The notes beneath the pieces were generated by a model. That model was given only the letters and a program-made list of their open reading frames with translations. It was not told where the DNA came from and made no database searches. Shown here one piece after another: positions 10,069-60,688 of a DNA stretch of 64,000 nucleotides. Source of the stretch: Escherichia coli. GTDB lineage: Bacteria > Pseudomonadota > Gammaproteobacteria > Enterobacterales > Enterobacteriaceae. The DNA is taken from the NCBI RefSeq assembly GCF_003334305.1, contig NZ_QOWS01000026.1; one strand, 5' to 3'. The position numbers and the translations under genes are program-made. Every line of letters begins with the position of its first letter. The first letter of the stretch is position 1.

Positions 10069-10104
10069 ATGTGCCGGAGACGCCTCCGGCACAATATTTT
10101 TAAT
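10069..10104 (+). terminator. rhaBADM operon terminator
   Basis: Perfect stem gtgccggag/ctccggcac followed by aatattttta. Confidence 0.7.
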
Positions 10105-15091: not shown

Positions 15092-15120
15092 CTGTGTCGG
15101 ATGCGCCGCATCCGACACTG
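15092..15120. terminator. Bidirectional terminator hairpin between convergent frvR and yiiG
   Basis: Perfect inverted repeat gtgtcggatgcg/cgcatccgacac immediately after frvR stop and before yiiG stop. Confidence 0.6.
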
Positions 15121-17359: not shown

Positions 17360-20300
17360 ATGCAGGTCAGCAGAAGGCAGTTCTTTAAGATCTGCGCTGG
17401 CGGTATGGCAGGCACCACGGCAGCGGCACTGGGTTTTGCACCCAGCGTAGCGCTCGCGGAAACCCGGCAGTATAAACTGCTGCGCACCCGCGAAACCCGT
17501 AATACCTGCACCTATTGTTCCGTAGGCTGTGGGCTGTTGATGTACAGCCTCGGTGACGGAGCAAAAAACGCCAAAGCATCTATCTTCCATATCGAAGGCG
17601 ATCCGGATCACCCGGTCAACCGCGGTGCACTTTGTCCGAAAGGCGCTGGCCTGGTGGATTTCATCCACTCCGAAAGCCGTCTGAAGTTTCCGGAATACCG
17701 TGCGCCAGGTTCTGATAAATGGCAGCAAATCAGTTGGGAAGAGGCGTTTGATCGCATCGCCAAACTGATGAAAGAAGACCGCGATGCTAACTACATTGCG
17801 CAAAACGCCGAAGGCGTGACTGTTAACCGCTGGCTCTCCACCGGGATGCTGTGTGCTTCCGCGTCGAGTAACGAAACCGGCTATTTAACGCAAAAATTCT
17901 CCCGCGCGCTGGGTATGCTCGCGGTCGACAACCAGGCGCGTGTCTGACACGGACCAACGGTAGCAAGTCTTGCTCCAACATTTGGTCGCGGTGCGATGAC
18001 CAACCACTGGGTCGACATCAAGAACGCCAACCTCGTCGTGGTGATGGGCGGTAACGCCGCTGAAGCTCACCCGGTCGGGTTCCGCTGGGCGATGGAAGCC
18101 AAAATTCACAACGGCGCGAAGCTGATTGTGATCGATCCTCGCTTTACGCGTACGGCGGCGGTAGCTGACTACTATGCCCCTATTCGTTCCGGTACTGACA
18201 TTGCTTTCCTGTCAGGCGTATTGCTGTACCTGCTGAACAATGAAAAATTCAACCGCGAATACACCGAAGCCTATACCAACGCAAGCCTGATAGTGCGTGA
18301 GGATTACGGCTTTGAAGATGGCCTGTTCACCGGCTACGACGCGGAAAAACGCAAGTACGATAAATCCTCCTGGACTTATGAACTGGACGAAAACGGCTTC
18401 GCCAAACGCGATACCACGCTGCAACATCCGCGCTGCGTGTGGAACTTGCTGAAACAGCACGTTTCCCGCTACACGCCAGATGTGGTTGAAAACATCTGTG
18501 GTACGCCAAAAGACGCGTTCCTGAAAGTCTGCGAATACATCGCAGAAACCAGTGCTCACGATAAAACTGCCTCGTTCCTCTATGCCCTCGGCTGGACGCA
18601 ACACTCCGTTGGTGCGCAAAACATTCGTACGATGGCGATGATCCAGCTGCTGCTCGGCAATATGGGGATGGCCGGCGGCGGCGTTAACGCCCTGCGCGGT
18701 CACTCCAATATTCAGGGGCTGACGGACCTGGGGCTGCTGTCGCAGAGTCTGCCAGGTTACATGACGCTGCCAAGCGAGAAGCAGACCGATCTGCAAACCT
18801 ACCTTACCGCCAACACGCCAAAACCGCTGCTGGAAGGCCAGGTAAACTACTGGGGCAACTACCCGAAATTCTTCGTCTCTATGATGAAGGCCTTCTTTGG
18901 TGATAAAGCGACGGCGGAAAATAGCTGGGGCTTTGACTGGTTGCCGAAGTGGGATAAAGGCTACGACGTCCTGCAATACTTCGAGATGATGAAAGAAGGC
19001 AAGGTCAATGGCTATATCTGCCAGGGCTTTAACCCTGTTGCCTCATTCCCGAACAAAAACAAAGTGATCGGTTGTCTGTCGAAACTGAAGTTCCTCGTCA
19101 CCATCGACCCGCTGAACACTGAAACCTCTAACTTCTGGCAGAACCACGGTGAGCTGAACGAAGTTGACTCGTCGAAGATCCAGACCGAAGTGTTCCGTCT
19201 GCCATCGACCTGCTTCGCAGAAGAGAACGGTTCAATCGTTAACTCAGGTCGCTGGTTGCAGTGGCACTGGAAAGGTGCGGACGCCCCGGGGATTGCGCTG
19301 ACTGATGGCGAGATCCTCTCCGGTATCTTCCTGCGCTTGCGCAAGATGTATGCCGAACAGGGTGGCGCGAACCCGGACCAGGTGCTGAACATGACCTGGA
19401 ACTACGCCATTCCGCATGAGCCGAAGTCGGAAGAAGTAGCGATGGAGAGCAACGGTAAGGCGCTGGCCGATATTACCGATCCGGCAACCGGTGCGGTTAT
19501 CGTCAAGAAAGGCCAACAACTTAGCTCGTTCGCCCAATTGCGCGATGACGGTACAACCTCCTGTGGCTGCTGGATTTTCGCCGGTAGCTGGACGCCGGAA
19601 GGCAACCAGATGGCGCGTCGTGATAACGCCGATCCGTCTGGCCTCGGTAACACGCTGGGCTGGGCATGGGCATGGCCGCTTAACCGCCGCATTCTGTATA
19701 ACCGCGCCTCCGCAGATCCGCAGGGTAACCCGTGGGATCCGAAGCGTCAGTTGCTGAAATGGGACGGCACTAAGTGGACCGGCTGGGATATTCCGGACTA
19801 CAGCGCAGCGCCTCCGGGTAGCGGCGTCGGGCCGTTTATCATGCAGCAGGAAGGCATGGGGCGTCTGTTTGCCCTCGATAAGATGGCGGAAGGTCCGTTC
19901 CCGGAACACTACGAGCCGTTTGAAACGCCGCTGGGAACTAACCCGCTGCATCCAAACGTTATCTCGAACCCGGCTGCACGTATCTTTAAAGACGACGCCG
20001 AAGCATTGGGTAAAGCCGATAAGTTCCCGTATGTCGGAACCACCTATCGTCTGACCGAGCATTTCCACTACTGGACCAAACACGCGCTGTTGAACGCGAT
20101 TTTGCAACCAGAGCAGTTTGTGGAAATCGGGGAGTCGCTGGCGAATAAACTTGGCATTGCCCAGGGCGATACCGTGAAAGTCTCCTCCAACCGTGGCTAT
20201 ATCAAGGCCAAAGCGGTGGTGACCAAACGTATTCGTACACTGAAAGTGAACGGCAAAGATATCGATACCATCGGTATTCCGATTCACTGGGGCTATGAAG

Positions 20301-20410
20301 GCGTAGCTAAAAAAGGCTTTATTGCCAATACGTTAACGCCATTCGTTGGTGATGCGAACACGCAGACGCCGGAGTTTAAGTCCTTCCTTGTGAATGTGGA
20401 AAAGGTGTAA
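17360..20410 (+). CDS. fdoG: Formate dehydrogenase-O catalytic subunit (selenoprotein; in-frame UGA at 17945..17947 read as Sec)
   Basis: ORF track shows 17360..17947 and 17996..20410 in the same frame, split only by TGA; flanking residues ..VDNQARV-U-HGPTVASLAPTFGRG.. match the Sec site of FdoG; twin-arginine signal SRRQFFK at N-terminus. Confidence 0.95.
17945..17990 (+). other. UGA-Sec codon and putative SECIS hairpin
   Basis: In-frame TGA followed by a short hairpin (gcaag/cttgc) within the ~40 nt window where bacterial SECIS elements lie. Confidence 0.65.
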
Positions 20411-20422
20411 CGGAGACGACAT

Positions 20423-21325
20423 ATGGCTTATCAATCTCAAGATATCATTCGTCGTTCCGCGACTAACGGTCTGACCCCCGCGCCTCAGGCGCGGGACTTC
20501 CAGGAAGAAGTGGCGAAACTCATCGACGTCACCACCTGTATCGGCTGTAAAGCCTGTCAGGTGGCGTGTTCAGAGTGGAACGACATTCGCGATACCGTCG
20601 GCAATAACATTGGGGTGTACGACAACCCCAATGATTTAAGCGCCAAATCGTGGACGGTAATGCGCTTCTCGGAAGTGGAGCAGAACGACAAACTGGAATG
20701 GCTGATCCGCAAAGACGGCTGTATGCACTGTTCCGATCCAGGCTGCCTGAAAGCGTGCCCGGCGGAAGGTGCAATTATTCAGTATGCCAACGGTATCGTC
20801 GACTTCCAGTCCGAGCAGTGCATTGGCTGCGGTTATTGCATTGCGGGCTGTCCGTTCGACATTCCGCGCCTCAACCCGGAAGACAACCGCGTCTACAAAT
20901 GTACGCTGTGCGTTGACCGCGTGGTGGTTGGGCAAGAACCAGCCTGCGTGAAGACCTGCCCAACGGGCGCGATTCACTTCGGTACGAAAGAGTCGATGAA
21001 AACGCTGGCGAGCGAGCGCGTTGCTGAGCTGAAAACCCGCGGTTACGACAATGCGGGTCTGTACGATCCGGCAGGCGTCGGTGGTACACACGTCATGTAC
21101 GTGCTGCACCATGCTGACAAGCCAAATCTGTATCATGGCTTGCCGGAGAACCCGGAAATCAGCGAAACCGTGAAATTCTGGAAAGGCATCTGGAAACCGC
21201 TCGCGGCTGTTGGCTTTGCGGCTACCTTTGCGGCCAGTATCTTCCACTACGTGGGTGTCGGTCCGAACCGTGCGGATGAGGAAGAGAATAATCTGCACGA
21301 AGAGAAAGACGAGGAGCGCAAATGA
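20423..21325 (+). CDS. fdoH: Formate dehydrogenase-O iron-sulfur subunit
   Basis: 300 aa ORF with multiple CxxCxxCxxxCP ferredoxin motifs and a C-terminal TM anchor. Confidence 0.95.
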
Positions 21326-21957
21326 AACGACGTGACACCATCGTGCGCTACACCGCGCCGGAACGTATCAACCACTGGATCACCGCCTTCTGCTTCATCC
21401 TGGCGGCGGTGAGCGGGCTGGGCTTTTTGTTCCCGTCCTTCAACTGGTTGATGCAAATCATGGGCACACCGCAGCTGGCGCGAATTCTGCACCCGTTTGT
21501 CGGCGTGGTTATGTTTGCCTCGTTCATCATCATGTTTTTCCGTTACTGGCATCACAACCTAATCAATCGGGATGATATCTTTTGGGCGAAGAATATTCGT
21601 AAGATCGTCGTCAACGAGGAAGTAGGTGACACCGGGCGTTATAACTTCGGTCAGAAATGCGTTTTCTGGGCGGCGATTATTTTCCTGGTTCTGCTGCTGG
21701 TGAGCGGCGTGATTATCTGGCGTCCTTATTTTGCGCCTGCTTTCTCAATCCCGGTGATCCGATTCGCGTTAATGCTGCATTCATTTGCCGCAGTGGCGTT
21801 AATTGTGGTTATCATGGTGCATATCTACGCCGCCCTTTGGGTGAAAGGCACGATTACCGCCATGGTGGAAGGATGGGTTACCAGCGCCTGGGCGAAGAAA
21901 CATCACCCGCGCTGGTACCGTGAGGTCCGCAAGACAACGGAAAAGAAAGCTGAATGA
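21322..21957 (+). CDS. fdoI: Formate dehydrogenase-O cytochrome b556 subunit
   Basis: 211 aa polytopic membrane [26 protein letters not shown]...; ATGA overlap with fdoH. Confidence 0.95.
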
Positions 21958-22883
21958 GTATTCGCATAATCCCGCAAGATGAGCTGGGTTCAAGCGAGAA
22001 ACGTACGGCGGATATGATTCCGCCGTTATTGTTCCCTCGGCTCAAGAATTTATACAACCGCCGCGCCGAGCGTCTGCGCGAGCTGGCAGAAAATAATCCG
22101 CTGGGTGATTACCTGCGCTTTGCTGCGCTTATCGCCCACGCCCAGGAAGTGGTGCTGTACGACCATCCGCTGGAGATGGATCTGACCGCGCGCATTAAAG
22201 AAGCCAGCGCACAGGGCAAGCCCCCGCTGGATATTCACGTTCTGCCGCGTGATAAGCACTGGCAAAAGCTGCTGATGGCGCTGATTGCTGAGCTGAAACC
22301 TGAAATGAGCGGCCCGGCGCTGGCAGTGATTGAGAATCTGGAGAAGGCATCGACTCAGGAGCTGGAAGATATGGCCAGCGCACTGTTTGCCTCTGATTTC
22401 TCATCCGTCAGCAGCGATAAAGCGCCGTTTATCTGGGCTGCACTGTCGCTCTACTGGGCGCAGATGGCCAATCTGATCCCCGGCAAAGCCCGCGCTGAAT
22501 ACGGCGAGCAACGTCAATATTGCCCGGTTTGTGGTTCTATGCCGGTGTCCAGCATGGTGCAAATTGGCACCACTCAGGGTCTGCGTTACCTGCACTGCAA
22601 CCTGTGTGAAACCGAATGGCACGTAGTGCGCGTAAAATGCAGCAACTGCGAGCAGAGCGGCAAACTGCATTACTGGTCGCTGGATGACGAACAGGCCGCG
22701 ATTAAAGCCGAAAGCTGCGATGACTGTGGCACTTACCTGAAGATTCTTTATCAGGAAAAAGAACCGAAAGTTGAAGCCGTGGCAGATGACCTCGCTTCTC
22801 TGGTACTGGACGCGCGAATGGAGCAAGAAGGCTATGCCCGCAGTTCCATCAACCCGTTCCTGTTTCCGGGTGAAGGGGAGTAA
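21954..22883 (+). CDS. fdhE: Formate dehydrogenase formation protein FdhE
   Basis: 309 aa ORF with paired CxxC motifs; ATGA overlap with fdoI. Confidence 0.95.
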
Positions 22884-23127
22884 TCTCTGACGTTTTCCGG
22901 GTGGCGCTGGTCGCCCGGATTACAGCTCATAGGGTGTGACGACACCATCTCTCGTATTCCGCGTTACCCATTCAAGATCATGCCGCAATTGTCTGTTTGC
23001 CTCGTTCTTCCCTCCAACACATCGATAAGGTTATGGGTATGTCACTGATGACAAGCGTATGATTGCCTGATGCGCTGCGCTTATCAGCCCTACCAATAAA
23101 CTTCAATATATTGAATTTGCATGACTT

Positions 23128-23161
23128 TGTAGGCCGGATAAGGCGTTCACGCCGCATCCGG
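23128..23161. repeat. REP element
   Basis: gtaggccggataaggcgttcacgccgcatccggc, between convergent fdhE and yiiF. Confidence 0.75.
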
Positions 23162-23212
23162 CATGAACAACGCGCACGTTGTCAGCAATCTGATTGACAT
23201 CATTTTTTCCCA

Positions 23213-23431
23213 TTACCATTCCTCGCGCAGCTTACGCTGATATTCGACACCATCTTCCTCACACCCTTGCCAGATGCCAGGAACACTGGTTCTTGCTGTT
23301 TGCGATTGATTTATCAGGTATTGATCTACCGCTTCCCTTAATAGGTCCGCACGAGGAAGATTACGCTGCACCTCGAGATCATCAAGTTGCTTAATCACCT
23401 CATTCGATAAATCGAGTAAAATTCTGCCCAT
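23213..23431 (-). CDS. yiiF: Ribbon-helix-helix (CopG-like) small protein YiiF
   Basis: 72 aa from ATG 23431 ([39 protein letters not shown]...); the in-frame ATG at 23455 is an alternative start. Confidence 0.8.
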
Positions 23432-23540
23432 ATCTATACCTGCCAGAGAGTTCATAAATATCTCGCCAATATCATTTTTGAATCTATGGAGAGAAAAGTA
23501 CCCTTGCCGAATCTTTAAAGAAAGCTCATTTACGCATCAT

Positions 23541-23590
23541 TTTTTATTTTTGCGAGGCGTTTTCCAGATACGATGTAACAGTTGCAGTTA
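23541..23590 (-). repeat. Conserved upstream element, copy 1 (before yiiF)
   Basis: Core tttgcgaggcgttttccaga at 23549..23568 (plus strand); shares an extended ~45 bp match with copy 2, including gttgcagtt. Confidence 0.6.
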
Positions 23591-23673
23591 TTATAAGTTC
23601 AAGTAAAACAGCCTTGTATTAATACCAGAATAAGGGCATCTGTTTTTTTATATTCAAGAATGAAAAATTTTTT

Positions 23674-23892
23674 TCATTCCTTATGCTCCTTACACTGATC
23701 ATCAACACCAACTGTCTCACCCCTTTGCCTGCCTCTCTTTGCTTTACGCACCGGAAATTGCTGCCGCTCCAGATATTGCTCAACCGCTTCGCGTAAAATT
23801 GCAGATCGTGAAACCTTACGCCAGCCCCGAAGCTTGTTCAGCCGTTTAATTGCCTCTTCTGATAAATGAAGAAAAACCGTATTCATCGCCAT
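23674..23892 (-). CDS. yiiE: Ribbon-helix-helix (CopG-like) small protein YiiE
   Basis: 72 aa from ATG 23892 (MAMNTVFLHLSEEAIKRLNKLRGWRKVSRSAILREAVEQYL...) with AAGGTGG SD 5 nt upstream. Confidence 0.85.
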   Translation of the reverse strand: MAMNTVFLHLSEEAIKRLNKLRGWRKVSRSAILREAVEQYLERQQFPVRKAKRGRQRGETVGVDDQCKEHKE

Positions 23893-23979
23893 TACCACCA
23901 CCTTACATATATTACTCATTAATGTATGTGCGAAAATTACGCCGGAAAATCATTTAAAAAAAGCGGATTTTTGCATGTT

Positions 23980-24029
23980 GTTTTGTTTTTGCGAGGTGTT
24001 TTCCAGAAATAATAAGAGTGTTGCAGTTG
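23980..24029 (-). repeat. Conserved upstream element, copy 2 (before yiiE)
   Basis: Core tttgcgaggtgttttccaga at 23988..24007, then gttgcagtt at 24020..24028. Confidence 0.6.
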
Positions 24030-24318
24030 TTTCATTTATTACTCAAAAATGGTTTAGTTATCGCCCAGGATGAGTTATGGATGCTATGAATATATTATAT
24101 TCAGGGATGTTTATTTTTTGATTGGATCTTTATTTGCATAATCTGAATGGTGTACCCGAAAAATGTCAGCATCCTAACAGCACCCGGATTTAAGGTGAAA
24201 TTAATCATCCATCACAGACCGGTCAGTACTGCCACCAACCGGTCTTTACTTGTTCATCGTTATAATTTTGTTGGTAACAGTTCGGGAAACAAGGAATTCC
24301 TTCCGGAACCCCCCGGTA

Positions 24319-24411
24319 TCATCCGATAGCATTGACGTCAATCATCAGCGCGACGATGAGTTTTTTTAATCGCATCATAGGGTGGCGACGTTCAGCACGA
24401 TTACGGGTCAT
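24319..24411 (-). CDS. Hypothetical 30-aa ORF downstream of antitoxin gene
   Basis: ATG at 24411 preceded by CAGGAG with a 7-nt spacer; translation MTRNRAERRHPMMRLKKLIVALMIDVNAIG. Below the ORF-track size cutoff; no homology assessed. Confidence 0.25.
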   Translation of the reverse strand: MTRNRAERRHPMMRLKKLIVALMIDVNAIG

Positions 24412-24496
24412 AGCAAAACTCCTGGGCAGGCGACCACTATGCCGCTTTCACAGGAGTTCTGAATGCTAGTGCTTTCTGTATGGCATAACCATGCCT

Positions 24497-24787
24497 CTAA
24501 CGGTTAAGTGCTTGCAGCACATGTTGCGGATCATTGGCAATCGCTCGCAGCAAAGCCTTTGCAGGCCCGGTCGGTGAACGTCGCCCCTGCTCCCAGTTAC
24601 GCAACGTGTCTACGCTTACAGAAATAAGATCGGCAAATTTAGATTGTGACAACCCTGAAGCGCGGCGTATTTCTTTGATTTTCATAGCATCAACTTCAAA
24701 AGTCCGCGAAGGCTGTCGCGTTCCTTCAATAATTTCATTCATCTGGGCCATGCTGTGAGTCAACCGCTCAAAAAGTGCCTTATCCAT
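24497..24787 (-). CDS. XRE-family HTH antitoxin-like protein (HigA-like)
   Basis: 96 aa ORF; ..IKEIRRASGLSQSKFADLISVSVDTLRNWEQGRRSPTGPAKALLRAI.. is a typical XRE helix-turn-helix; start directly abuts the toxin ORF stop. Confidence 0.75.
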   Translation of the reverse strand: MDKALFERLTHSMAQMNEIIEGTRQPSRTFEVDAMKIKEIRRASGLSQSKFADLISVSVDTLRNWEQGRRSPTGPAKALLRAIANDPQHVLQALNR

Positions 24788-25099
24788 TTACCACCTCGTA
24801 TTTAACAACCGGAGCATTGCTTTTTCCTGGGGAGACAGATCATCTTTAATACCCTTACGATAAATAAGCAGTAATCTGATCTCATAATGTTTAACCTGAT
24901 GAAAGTAAATAACCCTGACACCAGCACGTTTCCCCTTTCCTCCTGAAACCCATCGAACCTTTCTTAACCCACCAGTTTCAGGTATTACCTCACCATAGTC
25001 AGGATTCAAGGCCAGGAAAAACTGAAAACGACTGAATTCATCGTCGGTCAGCAGTTTTTGAACATCTTCAGTAAAAATTTCCGTTTCGATGAAGAGCAT
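24788..25099 (-). CDS. RelE/ParE-superfamily (HigB-like) toxin-like protein
   Basis: 103 aa ORF MLFIETEIFTEDVQKLL...GGLRKVRWVSGGKGKRAGVRVIYFHQ...LLLIYRKGIKDDLSPQEK...; motif pattern matches RelE-like toxins that pair with a downstream HTH antitoxin. Confidence 0.7.
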   Translation of the reverse strand: MLFIETEIFTEDVQKLLTDDEFSRFQFFLALNPDYGEVIPETGGLRKVRWVSGGKGKRAGVRVIYFHQVKHYEIRLLLIYRKGIKDDLSPQEKAMLRLLNTRW

Positions 25100-25136
25100 A
25101 ATTATACGCCATTGGCTTAGAGTAACAATCCTTTTT

Positions 25137-25153
25137 GTACGTCATTGACGTAC
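25137..25153. promoter_or_regulatory. Perfect palindrome, candidate operator of the toxin-antitoxin operon
   Basis: gtacgtcaTtgacgtac (8-bp arms) 38 bp upstream of the toxin start codon. Confidence 0.4.
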
Positions 25154-25215
25154 CCTTGAAACCACTAGCTTACTGATAGTGCTCCAGCAAAACCACGTCT
25201 CTGCCGGGTTTGTCT

Positions 25216-25240
25216 TTAGATTTGCGAGGCGCTTTCCAGA
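25216..25240 (-). repeat. Conserved upstream element, copy 3 (before toxin gene)
   Basis: Core tttgcgaggcgctttccaga at 25221..25240, about 120 bp upstream of the toxin ATG, in the divergent intergenic region shared with the esterase gene. Confidence 0.55.
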
Positions 25241-25327
25241 TTTTTCACGCCCGTGAATTTCCCTGTATCCATCCAGCAAAAACGGGTGTATAAGACTGTA
25301 CATTCATACAGCAAAATAAGTTCTACT

Positions 25328-26236
25328 ATGGCACTGGAAAAAGGAATTGCAGAGTTAGTCGAAAAGTTTATCGCTGCGGGTCGCCCCTCATCGCGTCAAC
25401 AAAGTATTGCGCAGCGCAGGGAGGGCTATATCGCCAGCGCTGTCCTTGCGGGTGAGACAGAAACGCGGGTAGATATTCAGACTATCGAACTTGAAGGGAT
25501 GACCTTACGAATAGTGTCGCCGCTGAATGCCCCGACATTACTCCCGACGATAATTTATTACTACGGTGGCTGTTTTGTTAGCGGCGGGTTCGCAACTCAC
25601 GACAACCAGCTGCGCCAGTTAGCCTATTACGGGCAATGTCGGGTTATTGCCGTCCAGTATCGGCTGGCACCGGAACATACTTTCCCCGCCGCCCATGATG
25701 ATGCGCAACGAGGTGCAGAAATAGTCTGGCAACACGCCGAACGACTCGGCGTTGATAAACAACGTATAACTCTTGCCGGTGACAGTGCGGGCGGACATCT
25801 GGCGCTGGTAACTGCTTTGCGATTAAAGCGTGCTGGCGAGTGGCAACCGGCACAACTCATCTTAATTTATCCTATGCTTGATGCGACTGCGCATTTCGAA
25901 AGCTACATACGCAATGGTCACGATTACATCATCACACGCGACACTTTACTGAGCGGCTTTGAGATGTATCTGCCAGGCATTGAACGCAGGCATCCTGAAG
26001 CCAGCCCTCTTTGGCGCGATGATTTCAATGGCTTGCCACCTGTACATATCATTACCGCTGAATACGACCCACTTTGCGATGAAGGTGAAGCGTTGTATCA
26101 CCGCATGACAGGGCAAGGAGTGCAATGCACCTGCCAACGCTACCTTGGCGTTATCCACGGATTTTTTCAGTTAGGTGGTATCAGCGAGGCCGCGCGATCG
26201 GCACTACGGGATGTTGCCTGGAGAGCGGGAAGGTAA
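25328..26236 (+). CDS. Alpha/beta-hydrolase fold esterase/lipase (HSL-like family)
   Basis: ORF track 25253..26236 (GTG); first ATG at 25328 (MALEKGIAELV...). Contains GDSAGG nucleophile elbow, acidic residue in EYDPL and His in GVIHGF; oxyanion-hole region reads YYGGCF rather than HGGG. Confidence 0.7.
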   Translation: MALEKGIAELVEKFIAAGRPSSRQQSIAQRREGYIASAVLAGETETRVDIQTIELEGMTLRIVSPLNAPTLLPTIIYYYGGCFVSGGFATHDNQLRQLAYYGQCRVIAVQYRLAPEHTFPAAHDDAQRGAEIVWQHAERLGVDKQRITLAGDSAGGHLALVTALRLKRAGEWQPAQLILIYPMLDATAHFESYIRNGHDYIITRDTLLSGFEMYLPGIERRHPEASPLWRDDFNGLPPVHIITAEYDPLCDEGEALYHRMTGQGVQCTCQRYLGVIHGFFQLGGISEAARSALRDVAWRAGR

Positions 26237-26251
26237 CTTCGGACCTGGGCC

Positions 26252-26284
26252 CTGAAAAGGTTTTCAGATTGAAAACCTTTTCAG
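26252..26284. terminator. Strong inverted repeat between convergent esterase gene and yiiD
   Basis: 12-bp perfect arms gaaaaggttttc / gaaaaccttttc with loop agatt; no clear U-tract on either strand. Confidence 0.35.
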
Positions 26285-26299
26285 TCAAGTAAAACGCCC

Positions 26300-27289
26300 C
26301 TACTCTTCTTCGTTCCCGCCCTCTTCATACGGGCCAAATGGCTTCGCGGGCAGAACGATATACGTGCCTTCAAACACTGCACCCGGCGTCTCGTCGCCAA
26401 AGATTTCAACTTGCATCTGCACCCGTGCTTTTCGTCCGCGCGCCAGACGGTCGAGATCGCCGCTTAAGGCACCAAGGTCGGCTATCGCATGAGGTTTACC
26501 GCTAATCGGCTTGCTGTAGCGGATATGCGCATCCGCCAGAATAATCGTTCCGCCGAGATGGCGTTCGCGCAGCATCAGCCAGATAAGCCCCCAACCGGTG
26601 AGCGTCGCCAGCGAGAATAAACTCCCGGCAAACAGCGTATGGTGCGGATTCTGATTGCCGGTTTCCGGCATGGTGGTGATAAATTTTTGCCCGGTATATT
26701 GTTGAATGCGCACGCCCATTTTTTCGCTTAATGGAATGTGTTCATACCACGCCTGTTGCAGCTGGGCGCACCAGTCACCGCGATGCAGAATATCATCCAG
26801 AGTGGCAACGGGTTTAATCATCAAAAAATGGCGAATCGGCGTGGTAGTTGGGGTGGTGATCTCCCCCTGATTAATGAATCCCAGCTTGGCGAAAAACTCC
26901 ACCGCGTCTTCACGGGCGCTACAGGTCACGCGCTTAACGCCTTCCTGACGCGCCACCGACTCCAGGGTCATCGCCATCAGCGTTCCTAACCCTTTGTCCT
27001 GCACGTCGGGATGAACGGCCATAAAGCGAATGGACGCTTCATTGTCGGCATTAATATACAATCGGCCTACCGCCACCAGATTACCCTGCTCGTCGACGAC
27101 CATCTGGTGATGCGCCATCGCATCCCACGCGTCGCGTTCCGAACCTTTTGGTTGATGCAGGGGCTTACGCAACATTTCCCAGCGAAACTGATAGTAACGC
27201 TCTAATTCTTCTTCTGTTTGTGGAACCCGAAGGTGATACATAGCGATACTCTCTCTTGTTTCCCGTGACAACCCTGGAAGCTGGCTCAT
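26300..27289 (-). CDS. yiiD: GNAT acetyltransferase / thioesterase fusion protein YiiD (FabY)
   Basis: 329 aa [43 protein letters not shown]..., recognised as YiiD. Confidence 0.92.
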
Positions 27290-27723
27290 ACCTGCAACCA
27301 GAATGTCACGGGGCCATCATTGACCAGCGATACCTGCATATCGGCAGCGAAGCGTCCTGTTTGCGTGTTCATCTCTTGCTGGCGGCAGCGTTCGACGAAA
27401 TAGTCATATAACGCCTCTGCGCGATCCGGTGATGCGCCTTTGGAGAAACTTGGGCGCATCCCTCGTTCGGTATCTGCGGCGAGGGTAAACTGGGAAACCA
27501 CCAGTACACTGCCGCCCGCCTGTTGCACGTTGAGATTCATCTTGCCTTCGGCATCGCTAAAGATGCGGTAGCCGAGCACACGCTCGCACAGACGGTTTGC
27601 TTTCTGTTCGTCGTCATCCTTTTCGACACCCAATAACACCAAAAGTCCCGCGCCAATTTCGCCCGTCACTTCTCCCTCCACGGTGACGCTGGCACGGGTT
27701 ACGCGTTGAATTAATGCAATCAT
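27286..27723 (-). CDS. dtd: D-aminoacyl-tRNA deacylase
   Basis: 145 aa [40 protein letters not shown]...; 4-nt overlap with yiiD. Confidence 0.95.
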
Positions 27724-44455: not shown

Positions 44456-44492
44456 GTAAAAAAAAACCTGCCAGCGATGGCAGGTTTTTTAT
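44456..44492 (-). terminator. typA (bipA) rho-independent terminator
   Basis: Stem cctgccagcgatggcagg flanked by A- and T-runs, 16 bp downstream of typA stop. Confidence 0.7.
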
Positions 44493-53451: not shown

Positions 53452-53696
53452 AAGAAAAAAGGCGACAGATTACTCTGTCGCCTTTTTTCCTGACTCATAA
53501 CCCTTAACGGGTCTTACAATCCTTGCAGGCCGCCAACACACCCTGTTTTTCCTTTAGCCGGAACAATCCGTGTTGATTCCATTTCCGTTTAATTACGTCT
53601 CCGGACGTTTGTCTTCCTGACAATCCTCTGTCTTCGCCTCCTGGCGCTCCTGACCCTCATCCTGAGTCATTGTTCCTGTTAGCGTCCTCGCTCTAT
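53452..53696 (-). ncRNA. csrC: CsrC small RNA (CsrA-sequestering)
   Basis: Minus-strand region dense in GGA/AGGA motifs ending in the hairpin ggcgacagagtaatctgtcgcc plus U-tract, 67 bp upstream of yihI; ends are approximate. Confidence 0.75.
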
Positions 53697-60639: not shown

Positions 60640-60670
60640 ATAAAAAAAGCCCGTGAATATTCACGGGCTT
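60640..60670 (-). terminator. dsbA terminator
   Basis: Stem agcccgtgaatattcacgggct followed on minus strand by a T-run, just downstream of dsbA stop. Confidence 0.7.
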
Positions 60671-60688
60671 TATGTAATTTACATTTAA

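What the first reader, a model, noticed from the sequence alone, without database searches (positions are those of the whole stretch)
26252..26284. Perfect 12-bp inverted repeat without a U-tract between the esterase gene and yiiD
gaaaaggttttc-agatt-gaaaaccttttc overlaps a second palindrome (ctgaaaa/ttttcag). It would form a very stable hairpin in transcripts from either strand, but it lacks the T-run of an intrinsic terminator. It may be an RNA-stability element or protein-binding site, and it lies close to the K-12-side edge of the candidate islet.
Basis: seen in the sequence. Interest (0 to 1): 0.3.

Follow-up and report, generated by a model that had tools for sequence, protein, structure and literature searches.

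The report
Leftover toxin-antitoxin operator turned palindrome
The perfect palindrome between the esterase gene and fabY/yiiD is most likely what remains of the repressor-binding site of a toxin-antitoxin gene pair (sehAB/higBA type) that this E. coli lineage has lost; it is a tidy piece of genome archaeology and otherwise ordinary.

Summary
The palindrome is real and larger than reported. It has 15-nt perfect arms and a 3-nt loop (26252-26284), and sits exactly in the middle of the 63-nt spacer between the convergent esterase and fabY stop codons. It is far beyond chance. It is single-copy and occurs at this locus only, in 2309 of 5426 complete E. coli genomes.

Its core, GTTTTCA-GAT-TGAAAAC, is the dyad found twice (over the -35 and just after the -10) upstream of a higBA-type toxin-antitoxin operon. 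That operon occupies this same esterase-fabY gap in Salmonella (sehAB), Citrobacter, Superficieibacter and 34 E. coli genomes. The dyad also accompanies the module in Enterobacter and in Brenneria, where the context is unrelated.

The window spacer also keeps the post-esterase flank and the last two codons plus stop of the antitoxin gene. It is therefore a deletion relic: an orphan antitoxin operator whose arms have since grown from 7 to 15 nt. No cognate antitoxin gene was detected in these genomes.

It scores below canonical intrinsic terminators. Any present role is inferred, not shown: a U-tract-less 3' hairpin that blocks exonucleases or pauses polymerase for both convergent mRNAs. The "islet" reading is wrong, because the esterase-fabY adjacency is ancestral and K-12 is the deleted form. 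Interest is low.

The parts
26252..26284 (.). 33-nt perfect palindrome: 15-nt arms (26252-26266 and 26270-26284) and loop GAT (26267-26269)
26260..26276 (.). Core dyad GTTTTCA-GAT-TGAAAAC. It matches the operator dyad (O1/O2) of sehAB/higBA-type promoters and is read here as an orphan operator relic
   Evidence: The exact pattern GTTTTCANNNTGAAAAC occurs once in the window. Among the 55 loci held at the time of that scan it occurs only in this spacer type and upstream of higB. Two loci fetched later were checked by script.
26252..26259 (.). Outer left arm CTGAAAAG, which extends the operator arms from 7 to 15 nt. It pairs with 26277-26284 (CTTTTCAG). Position 26253 is T here and A in ATCC 25922 and two other sampled genomes, where it breaks pair 14 with no compensating change
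26237..26251 (+). Left flank of the spacer. CTTCGGACCTGG is homologous to the post-esterase sequence CTCCGGATCCAG of the higBA-bearing E. coli allele
26287..26299 (+). Remnant of the 3' end of the lost antitoxin gene. AAG TAA (last codon and stop, 26287-26292) plus the short spacer to fabY matches ...GATAAGTAAAATCTCCACC|CTA of the E. coli higA allele
   Evidence: BLAST homology with L047 runs 13 nt past the fabY stop into the spacer, whereas K-12 homology stops exactly at 26300
25328..26236 (+). Hormone-sensitive-lipase-family alpha/beta hydrolase ('esterase'), the ortholog of Salmonella STM4032. Its mRNA would carry the hairpin 16 nt after the stop codon
26300..27241 (-). fabY (yiiD), convergent with the esterase. 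Its mRNA would carry the same hairpin 16 nt after the stop codon
26285..26384 (+). C-rich, G-poor untranslated RNA downstream of the hairpin for esterase transcripts (36 C and 18 G per 100 nt; 99th percentile of the window). This is rut-like
26152..26251 (-). C-rich RNA downstream of the hairpin for fabY transcripts (35 C and 23 G per 100 nt; 94th percentile)
24497..25099 (-). Neighbouring sehCD-like toxin-antitoxin pair that survives in this strain: RelE-like toxin 24788-25099 and NadS-family HTH antitoxin 24497-24787. It is the other half of the conserved sehCD-esterase-sehAB-fabY locus

Best explanation
The palindrome is a fossil of a toxin-antitoxin operator.

Original arrangement. In related enterobacteria the gap between the esterase gene and fabY holds a higBA-type operon, called sehAB in Salmonella. 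Its promoter carries two copies of the dyad TGTTTTCA-N3-TGAAAAC. One copy lies over the -35 and one lies just after the -10. The HTH antitoxin (SehB/HigA) represses this promoter as a dimer.

What happened here (inferred). In the lineage of this window the toxin and antitoxin genes, the promoter core and one dyad were deleted. What remains is a 63-nt spacer made of three pieces: the post-esterase flank, one dyad, and the last two codons plus stop of the antitoxin gene. The flanks of the surviving dyad have since become complementary, so the arms grew from 7 to 15 nt. The most plausible cause is template-switch 'perfecting' of a quasi-palindrome.

Present state. No cognate antitoxin gene is detectable in these genomes, so the DNA site is an orphan. 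What it still does follows from physics and is not shown. Any esterase or fabY transcript that crosses it folds into a -18 kcal/mol hairpin 16 nt after the stop codon, with no usable U-tract. That hairpin would act as a 3'-exonuclease barrier and an RNA polymerase pause or collision point. Termination itself would be left to Rho acting on the C-rich untranslated antisense RNA downstream, or to collisions between converging polymerases.
For: Shown here:
1. The exact dyad GTTTTCA-N3-TGAAAAC occurs once in the 64-kb window. Among the 55 loci held at that point it occurs only in this spacer type and upstream of higB.
2. The same gap holds higB and an HTH antitoxin in Superficieibacter electus, Citrobacter portucalensis and Salmonella enterica, and in 34 of 5426 E. 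coli genomes.
3. Each of these promoters has two such dyads 38-41 nt apart. The first copy in Citrobacter is degenerate. In the E. coli allele the right half of O1 is a -35 TTGAAA, followed 17 nt later by a -10 TACAGT, and then by O2.
4. The dyad travels with the module. It is present in Enterobacter sp., where the esterase is lost, and in Brenneria tiliae, where the genomic context is unrelated.
5. The K-12 higBA promoter has the same 7-N3-7 architecture with a different half-site, GTTGCCA-N3-TGGCAAC.
6. Both flanks of the window spacer are homologous to the E. coli higBA allele. CTTCGGACCTGG matches CTCCGGATCCAG on the left. AAGTAAAA followed by the fabY stop matches the end of higA on the right.
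7. No higBA of this type was detected by DNA search at about 65-70% identity or more in any genome other than those 34, and there is none in the window.

From the literature:
- SehB binds and represses the sehAB promoter (EMSA in PMC7160566; PMC12817084).
- The Salmonella antitoxin fetched here is 46% identical to K-12 HigA, the figure published for STM4030.S.

For the present-day RNA effect:
- Hairpin energy.
- Symmetric placement 15 nt from each stop codon.
- C>G skew downstream on both strands.
- Published properties of U-less protective stem-loops (PMC6061677) and of hairpin elements between convergent genes (bioRxiv 10.1101/2022.10.23.513370).

For arm extension:
- All homologous O2 dyads have 7-nt arms.
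- Template-switch perfecting of quasi-palindromes is documented in E. coli (PMC7202029, PMC5941160).
Against: - No allele with an intact esterase, the extended palindrome and higBA together was found. The deletion path is therefore reconstructed, not observed: either O2 was retained, or O1 and O2 were fused, followed by a deletion of about 0.8 kb.
- The closest comparator, the E. coli higBA allele, is itself divergent. Its esterase remnants are 87-91% identical to the window.
- I could not sample other Escherichia species, so the timing is unknown.
- Binding of any protein to this particular sequence is untested, and the primary paper that mapped the Salmonella palindromes is retracted.
- Other genera that lack higBA manage with 8-15-nt spacers and no hairpin. 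In ATCC 25922 and two other sampled genomes, position 26253 is A, which breaks pair 14 with no compensating change. About half of the carriers differ from the window spacer by 1-3 bases. Nothing therefore shows selection for the RNA hairpin.
- The outer arms differ from the homologous flanks on both sides, so a single template switch from the known allele does not explain them.
- The polarity of the T/A polymorphism does not support 'perfecting', because T matches the higBA allele.
Confidence: 0.7

Rival explanations
1. The hairpin arose on its own as a bidirectional 3' element (terminator or stabiliser) for the convergent esterase and fabY genes, and its resemblance to the higBA operator dyad is coincidence.
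For: It is exactly centred between two convergent stop codons. It forms a stable hairpin on both strands. Its layout, A4 - stem - loop - stem - T4, mimics the perfect-palindrome bidirectional terminators at 53454, 44461 and 60646 in the same window. The RNA downstream is C-rich on both strands.
Against: A 14-base exact match to a dyad that occurs in the same intergenic position in four other genera is very unlikely by chance, especially with homologous flanks on both sides. Genera without higBA have 8-15-nt spacers and no hairpin.
Confidence: 0.08
2. The site is still a working protein-binding site. A HigA-family repressor encoded elsewhere binds it in trans, as a decoy or as a roadblock. Candidates are K-12-type HigA, which is full-length in about half of E. 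coli genomes, or a plasmid-borne HigA.
For: The dyad is intact and perfectly symmetric. K-12 HigA is 43% identical to the E. coli antitoxin of this family, and its operator shares 5 of 7 half-site positions and the same spacing. K-12-type higBA is full-length in 2824 of 5426 genomes.
Against: Two of the seven half-site positions differ (TT against GC). According to PMC3868539 (retracted), SehB and SehD do not cross-regulate. The site lies between two stop codons, with no promoter nearby. No binding data exist.
Confidence: 0.08
3. It works mainly as a weak bidirectional intrinsic (Rho-independent) terminator. The outer A-U pairs stay open, giving an 8-bp stem GGUUUUCA/UGAAAACC followed by UUUU.
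For: The inner reading has 3 G-C pairs, a 3-nt loop and 5 U in the 8 nt after the stem on the + strand. The A-tract/U-tract symmetry resembles true bidirectional terminators in the window.
Against: The core stem is only -6.8 kcal/mol. The discriminant is -23.5 and -26.1, against +9 to +51 for canonical terminators in the same window (the constants of the formula were recalled from memory). The terminator scan does not call it. The full 15-bp stem would sequester the U-run.
Confidence: 0.07
4. It is a mobile-element scar, a REP/MITE-like repeat or an attachment site that marks the edge of an acquired islet.
For: The esterase-fabY gap is a hot spot with at least four E. coli alleles. One of them carries an annotated transposase and IS200C.
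Against: The element is single-copy in every genome that has it. There are no relatives in plasmid or phage collections and no Rfam family. There are no terminal repeats or target duplications. IS200C is inserted in K-12-type sequence, not here. The gene order is ancestral, not acquired.
Confidence: 0.02

Closest known systems
Operator palindromes of the Salmonella sehAB (STM4031-STM4030.S) promoter and of HigA-family antitoxins in general
   Same: The dyad sequence is the same (GTTTTCA-N3-TGAAAAC). The 7-N3-7 geometry is the same. The chromosomal position, between the STM4032-type esterase and yiiD/fabY, is the same.
   Different: Only one dyad is left. The promoter hexamers, the toxin gene and the antitoxin gene are gone. 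The arms are extended to 15 nt. No cognate repressor was detected in the genome.
E. coli K-12 higBA (ygjNM) operators
   Same: Two dyads with 7-nt half-sites and a 3-nt spacer lie upstream of higB. The antitoxin is 43-46% identical.
   Different: The half-site is GTTGCCA rather than GTTTTCA, and the locus is different (3.23 Mb in MG1655).
U-tract-less 3' stem-loops that define and protect the ends of Rho-dependent transcripts (Dar & Sorek 2018, PMC6061677)
   Same: A stable stem-loop just after the stop codon, no U-rich tail, and C>G RNA downstream.
   Different: No 3'-end mapping or exonuclease data exist for this site. The stem is A/U-rich (5 G-C pairs out of 15). The element is a recent relic, not a conserved one.
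Bidirectional terminator elements between convergent genes (Ju et al. 2019, as described in bioRxiv 10.1101/2022.10.23.513370)
   Same: It lies between a convergent gene pair and encodes the same hairpin on both strands, which could act as a pause or collision point.
   Different: This is untested here. The expression level of the two genes is unknown, and K-12, where those maps were made, lacks the element.
Quasi-palindrome 'perfecting' by template switching (PMC7202029; PMC5941160)
   Same: A short operator dyad is embedded in arms that are perfectly complementary well beyond the homologous sequences. A second example at the same locus is the 17-nt-arm perfect palindrome after the esterase in the strain 98205 allele. 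It is a perfected copy of the imperfect hairpin 3' of nadS.
   Different: The event itself is not observed. Both flanks differ from the nearest known allele, and the one polymorphism in the stem does not polarise towards perfecting.

Membership tests
SehB/HigA-family antitoxin operator | Dyad-symmetric site matching the family's operator sequence (TGTTTTCA-N3-TGAAAAC in the sehAB subfamily) | tested here: met
   The window has GTTTTCA-GAT-TGAAAAC at 26260-26276. The same dyad lies upstream of higB in E. coli L047, Salmonella L053, Citrobacter L052, Superficieibacter L051, Enterobacter L056 and Brenneria L057.
SehB/HigA-family antitoxin operator | Located in the promoter of the TA operon, as two sites over or next to the -35 and -10 | tested here: not met
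   There is a single dyad. No promoter-like site is called in 25000-27500 other than the sehCD-like one. Intact alleles have O1 over the -35 and O2 after the -10.
SehB/HigA-family antitoxin operator | Cognate antitoxin gene adjacent to the site, or present in the genome | tested here: not met
   DNA of this higBA type is found in only 34 of 5426 genomes, all with the other allele. A tblastn of the window is negative. Distant protein paralogs elsewhere in the genome could not be searched.
SehB/HigA-family antitoxin operator | Syntenic position and flank homology with intact modules (descent) | tested here: met
   It lies in the same esterase-fabY gap. The left flank and the last codons of higA are retained.
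SehB/HigA-family antitoxin operator | Demonstrated binding by the antitoxin | not testable with these tools
   There is literature only for the Salmonella promoter fragment (PMC7160566; PMC3868539 is retracted). Nothing exists for this sequence.
Canonical intrinsic (Rho-independent) terminator | G+C-rich stem-loop immediately followed by a 7-8-nt U-rich tract | tested here: not met
   No T-run follows the 15-bp stem. The inner reading gives a -6.8 kcal/mol stem plus U4. The discriminant is -23.5 and -26.1, against +9 to +51 for canonical sites in the window.
U-tract-less protective 3' stem-loop of Rho-dependent transcripts | Energetically stable stem-loop after the stop codon, low U content after it, and C>G downstream | tested here: met
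   -18.2 kcal/mol. Tails are UCAAGUAA and GGCCCAGG. C minus G is +18 and +12 per 100 nt, at the 99th and 94th percentiles.
U-tract-less protective 3' stem-loop of Rho-dependent transcripts | Steady-state 3' ends mapped at the stem base; dependence on Rho, PNPase and RNase II | not testable with these tools
   K-12 data sets cannot cover it, because the spacer is absent from K-12 and from O157:H7.
Bidirectional terminator between convergent genes | Hairpin-encoding element between the 3' ends of a convergent pair | tested here: met
Bidirectional terminator between convergent genes | Overlapping, defined 3' ends of both transcripts by SEnd-seq | not testable with these tools
   No data are available for strains with this spacer.
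REP/BIME or MITE-type repeat | Many dispersed copies per genome sharing a consensus | tested here: not met
   There is one locus per genome. The second 'place' is the palindrome matching itself on the other strand. The window holds no other copy.
Known RNA family (Rfam 15) | Match to a covariance model | tested here: not met
   There are only two chance-level hits (E 2.2 and 7.8), far below the gathering scores.

The most novel reading that the evidence does not exclude
The orphan operator has been put to new use rather than merely surviving. After the toxin-antitoxin genes were lost, its arms were extended under selection into a 33-nt hairpin that now sets the 3' ends of both the esterase and fabY mRNAs. 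That would be a repressor-binding DNA site converted into an RNA element. Alternatively, it still titrates or is occupied by a paralogous HigA-family repressor. Either way, the four alleles of this gap would give different fabY expression in different E. coli lineages.
Probability: 0.2. Interest if true: 0.45.

Novelty: new member of a known kind. Interest (0 to 1): 0.2.

Why it matters
It explains an odd-looking perfect palindrome, present in about 43% of complete E. coli genomes, as a deletion relic of the sehAB/higBA module that Salmonella still carries at the same site.

It corrects the 'islet' reading. The sehCD-esterase-sehAB-fabY order is old, and K-12 is the reduced form.

It also gives a compact natural example of how toxin-antitoxin loci decay while leaving their operators behind, and of how short dyads can grow into long perfect palindromes.

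In practice it is a caution for annotation. A stable hairpin between convergent genes need not have arisen as a terminator. The different alleles give fabY (yiiD) different 3' UTRs in different E. coli lineages. Nothing here changes how any system is understood.

Tried and rejected
- Dispersed repeat (REP, MITE or IS end). Rejected: there is one locus per genome in 2309 genomes, and nothing in plasmid or phage collections beyond two mislabelled chromosomal records and chance hits.
- Known RNA family. Rejected: there is no Rfam match.
- Operator of the neighbouring sehCD-like pair. Rejected: that promoter has its own, unrelated palindrome, GTACGTCA-T-TGACGTAC at 25137-25153.
- Degenerate double-palindrome pattern scanned over 100,044 species representatives and IMG/VR. 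This gave 30 + 2 hits, none enterobacterial. They are unrelated A/T-rich palindromes in Bacteroidales, Lachnospiraceae and others.
- Canonical intrinsic terminator. Rejected on score. The constants of the d'Aubenton-Carafa-type formula were recalled from memory, so only the ranking against the window's own terminators should be trusted.
- Covariation test of the hairpin. Not possible. Within E. coli there is only one substitution (26253 T/A, uncompensated) and one rare 1-nt deletion, and no diverged orthologs of the extended palindrome were found.
- Outgroup Escherichia species. Not reached. The esterase cluster at 90% identity holds only E. coli names, and the '93% identical' hits were E. coli esterases with internal deletions and the identical spacer.
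- My first idea that the T at 26253 is a derived 'perfecting' mutation. Withdrawn, because T matches the higBA-bearing allele in the alignment.
- The IS621/dpp junction seen in strain 2011C-4251. It is not in the window, which has the K-12-like fdo-fdhE-yiiF-yiiE order.
- Published 3'-end maps. O157:H7 and K-12 lack the spacer, so EHEC and K-12 Term-seq cannot help.

Full report
**1. The observation**

The sequence at 26252-26284 is CTGAAAAGGTTTTCA-GAT-TGAAAACCTTTTCAG. The repeat finder reports 15-nt arms (26252-26266 and 26270-26284) that are 100% complementary, with 3 nt between them. The palindrome is therefore 33 nt.

Each arm is itself a near-palindrome, TGAAAA-NN-TTTTCA. That 14-mer occurs nowhere else in the window, even when mismatches are allowed.

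As RNA the 33-mer folds at -18.2 kcal/mol on either strand, with z = -6.4 and -7.1. As DNA it folds at -14.0 kcal/mol.

A census of perfect inverted repeats makes it the second longest in the 64-kb window. Thirty shuffles of the window never gave arms longer than 12 nt.

It lies in the 63-nt spacer between the stop codon of an alpha/beta-hydrolase gene (25328-26236, +; hormone-sensitive-lipase family) and the stop codon of fabY/yiiD (26300-27241, -). There are exactly 15 nt on each side.

**2. Copy number and distribution**

The 61-nt spacer is found in 2309 of 5426 complete E. coli genomes. It is always at this one locus. The second 'place' per genome is the palindrome matching itself on the other strand. 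In 1144 genomes it is identical to the window.

K-12-type genomes match the window only from 26300 onward, which is exactly the fabY stop. They have an unrelated fabY 3' flank.

There is no Rfam family and no homolog in the plasmid or phage collections. A degenerate pattern scan of 100,044 species representatives and of IMG/VR found only unrelated A/T-rich palindromes in distant phyla.

Within E. coli the only variants seen in the stem are two. One is A instead of T at 26253, in ATCC 25922 and two other sampled genomes. It breaks pair 14 with no compensating change. The other is a 1-nt deletion in one strain.

**3. Not an islet**

Esterase orthologs at 75-83% identity exist across Enterobacteriaceae. 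In Salmonella enterica subsp. salamae, Citrobacter farmeri and Enterobacter hormaechei the order is fdhE - (toxin-antitoxin pair) - esterase - fabY - dtd - yihY - yihX. The esterase-fabY spacers there are only 8-15 nt.

Relative to the window, K-12 replaces 24290-26299 by 474 nt. That 474 nt is itself a remnant of a longer allele seen in strain 98205. The esterase-fabY adjacency is therefore ancestral, and K-12 is the reduced form.

**4. The decisive lead**

A spread listing of E. coli genomes turned up a fourth allele, in strain MS1737 and 33 other genomes. In it the esterase has an 824-nt internal deletion, and a HigB-family toxin gene plus a 151-aa HTH antitoxin gene lie between the esterase remnant and fabY.

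The region upstream of higB reads ...TAACTCCGGATCCAGATAAAAATTGTTTTCAACTTGAAAATATCACAGGCCTGCCTTACAGTGTTTTCAGGTTGAAAACTCGTAATGG...ATG. It contains two dyads, GTTTTCA-N3-TGAAAA(C), 38 nt apart. The right half of the first dyad is a -35 TTGAAA. It is followed 17 nt later by a -10 TACAGT and then by the second dyad.

The core of the window palindrome, GTTTTCA-GAT-TGAAAAC, is the same dyad.

Both flanks agree as well. The window's CTTCGGACCTGG after the esterase stop matches CTCCGGATCCAG. The window's AAGTAAAACGCCC|CTA before the fabY stop matches the end of the antitoxin gene, GATAAGTAAAATCTCCACC|CTA. In keeping with this, BLAST homology with this allele runs 13 nt past the fabY stop into the spacer, whereas K-12 homology stops at the stop codon.

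**5. The dyad belongs to the toxin-antitoxin module**

Homologs of the antitoxin at 60-70% identity occur in several genera. In Superficieibacter electus, Citrobacter portucalensis and Salmonella enterica the order is esterase - higB - higA - fabY. Each esterase-higB spacer has the two dyads TGTTTTCA-N3-TGAAAAC 38-41 nt apart, the first copy in Citrobacter being degenerate.

The dyads are also present upstream of higBA in an Enterobacter sp. that has lost the esterase, and in Brenneria tiliae, where the module sits in an unrelated context.

Among the 55 loci held at the time of the scan, the exact pattern GTTTTCANNNTGAAAAC occurs only in this spacer type and upstream of higB. In the window it occurs once.

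The K-12 higBA promoter has the same 7-N3-7 architecture with a different half-site: CCGTTGCCA-ATC-TGGCAACGG and TTGCCA-ATT-TGTCAAC. K-12 HigA is 43% identical to the E. coli antitoxin of this family.

**6. What is published**

The Salmonella locus is the seh locus. It consists of sehCD (STM4032.2N-STM4033), one unrelated gene (STM4032), and sehAB (STM4031-STM4030.S) on the other strand (PMC3868539; this paper is marked retracted). The antitoxin I fetched from Salmonella is 46% identical to K-12 HigA, which is the figure published for STM4030.S.

SehB binds its own promoter fragment in EMSA and represses it. [quoted passage not shown] A 2026 paper again describes SehB as the repressor of sehAB (PMC12817084).

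The window keeps the sehCD-like pair (24497-25099, -), with its own unrelated palindrome at 25137-25153. I found no paper that mentions the E. coli relic.

**7. Reconstruction (inferred)**

The window spacer is what is left after deletion of sehAB/higBA. MAFFT aligns the surviving dyad with O2 and places a 39-nt gap over O1 and the promoter core. The 3-nt spacer GAT is closer to the O2 spacer GGT than to the O1 spacer ACT. A second deletion of about 0.8 kb would then have removed everything from just after the dyad to the last two codons of the antitoxin gene. A fusion of O1 and O2 is an equally possible first step.

All homologous O2 dyads have 7-nt arms, whereas here the arms are 13-15 nt. 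Six or more extra complementary pairs would arise by chance about once in 4^6 cases, so some process extended them. Template-switch perfecting of quasi-palindromes is documented in E. coli (PMC7202029, PMC5941160).

The same locus offers a second example. In strain 98205 the esterase is followed by a perfect 17-nt-arm palindrome, which is a perfected copy of the imperfect hairpin 3' of nadS.

The extension was not observed directly, and the 26253 polymorphism does not polarise towards perfecting.

**8. What it does now (inferred)**

DNA of this higBA type is present only in the 34 genomes with the other allele, and the window encodes no homolog. The DNA site is therefore an orphan. Cross-binding by K-12-type HigA, whose operon is full-length in 2824 genomes, cannot be excluded, but two of the seven half-site positions differ.

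As a terminator it is poor. The best reading is an 8-bp stem of -6.8 kcal/mol plus U4. It scores -23.5 and -26.1, against +9 to +51 for the canonical bidirectional terminators at 53454, 44461 and 60646 (the formula constants were recalled from memory, so only the ranking counts). The scan tool does not call it.

It does fit the description of U-tract-less stem-loops that mark and protect the 3' ends of Rho-dependent transcripts (PMC6061677). It is stable, has no U tail, and the untranslated RNA downstream is C-rich and G-poor on both strands, at the 99th and 94th percentiles of the window. It also fits the hairpin elements between convergent genes that position polymerase collisions (bioRxiv 10.1101/2022.10.23.513370).

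Genera without higBA have 8-15-nt spacers and no hairpin, and there is no compensatory variation. Selection for this role is therefore unproven.

**9. Verdict**

'Protein-binding site' is right as history. 'RNA-stability element' is plausible but untested. The 'islet' framing is wrong.

The element is an unannotated orphan copy of a known kind of site, a HigA/SehB-family operator. It is of low general interest.

Noticed in passing
window 25137-25153 (with a promoter-like site on the - strand, 25128-25101): A perfect 8-nt-arm palindrome, GTACGTCA-T-TGACGTAC, lies just upstream of the -35 of the promoter-like site for the sehCD-like toxin/NadS-antitoxin pair (24497-25099, -). It is probably that pair's own operator and is unrelated in sequence to the 26252 palindrome.
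   Followed up: partly
L003 10040-10076 and window 24417-24522: In E. coli strain 98205 the esterase stop is followed by a different perfect palindrome, CTCCTGTGAAAGCGGCA-CTA-TGCCGCTTTCACAGGAG. It is an 85%-identical copy of the imperfect hairpin 3' of nadS, with its left arm made perfectly complementary. About 100-bp direct repeats therefore flank nadS-toxin-esterase in that allele. The 75-nt segment occurs in 3370 of 5426 genomes.
   Followed up: partly
L002 5526-6000 compared with window 24290-26299: K-12 replaces the sehCD-like pair, the esterase and the spacer by 474 nt. That stretch includes the 5' remnant of a hypothetical gene that is complete in strain 98205. K-12 is thus a deletion derivative of that longer allele. 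IS200C sits in the K-12-type fabY 3' flank in strain 98205.
   Followed up: partly
L047 3348-3563 (E. coli MS1737 and 33 other genomes): In the higBA-bearing E. coli allele the esterase is reduced to its first ~29 nt and last ~56 nt (an 824-nt internal deletion). These remnants are only 87-91% identical to the window, which suggests a divergent, possibly imported, allele.
   Followed up: partly
L001 5332-7275 (strain 2011C-4251) compared with window 18744-24289: The genome that matches the finding region 100% has dppA - hypothetical - IS621 next to yiiF, whereas the window has the K-12-like fdoGHI-fdhE-yiiF-yiiE order. The window is therefore from a different strain, and 2011C-4251 carries an IS621-associated rearrangement.
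   Followed up: no
window 53454-53489, 44461-44490, 60646-60671: These are three perfect palindromes in which A6/T6 (or A3/T3) tracts form part of the repeat. They are textbook bidirectional intrinsic terminators and score +9 to +51 on both strands. They served as internal controls.
   Followed up: partly
window 15094-15118 and 10070-10093: Two G+C-rich perfect hairpins with no U-tract, GTGTCGGATGCGCCGCATCCGACAC (REP-like) and TGTGCCGGAGACGCCTCCGGCACA. Both score as non-terminators, as the finding does.
   Followed up: no
L010, L011, L020, L021, L024, L025, L032, L036 (Bacteroidales/Prevotella MAGs); L012, L016, L022, L023, L026, L027, L034 (Lachnospiraceae and relatives): The degenerate pattern scan picked up what look like two conserved palindromic element families in gut anaerobes. 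Examples are GGTACCGAAAAATTTTTCA-N5-TGAAAAATTTTTCGGTAC in Bacteroidales and ACTGAAAAxxTTTTCAxTGAAAATATTTTCAGT in Lachnospiraceae. They are unrelated to the finding.
   Followed up: no
L039 3910-4177: An unidentified enterobacterial genus (about 83% identical to E. coli in fabY-dtd) has a 268-nt esterase-fabY spacer with a called 89-aa ORF, and a PIN/RHH pair in place of sehCD. This is yet another state of the same variable gap.
   Followed up: no
L051 2086-2112: In Superficieibacter electus the first sehAB-type operator is itself a 27-nt perfect palindrome, CTGTTGTTTTCA-TAT-TGAAAACAACAG. Extended arms around this dyad are therefore not unique to E. coli.
   Followed up: no
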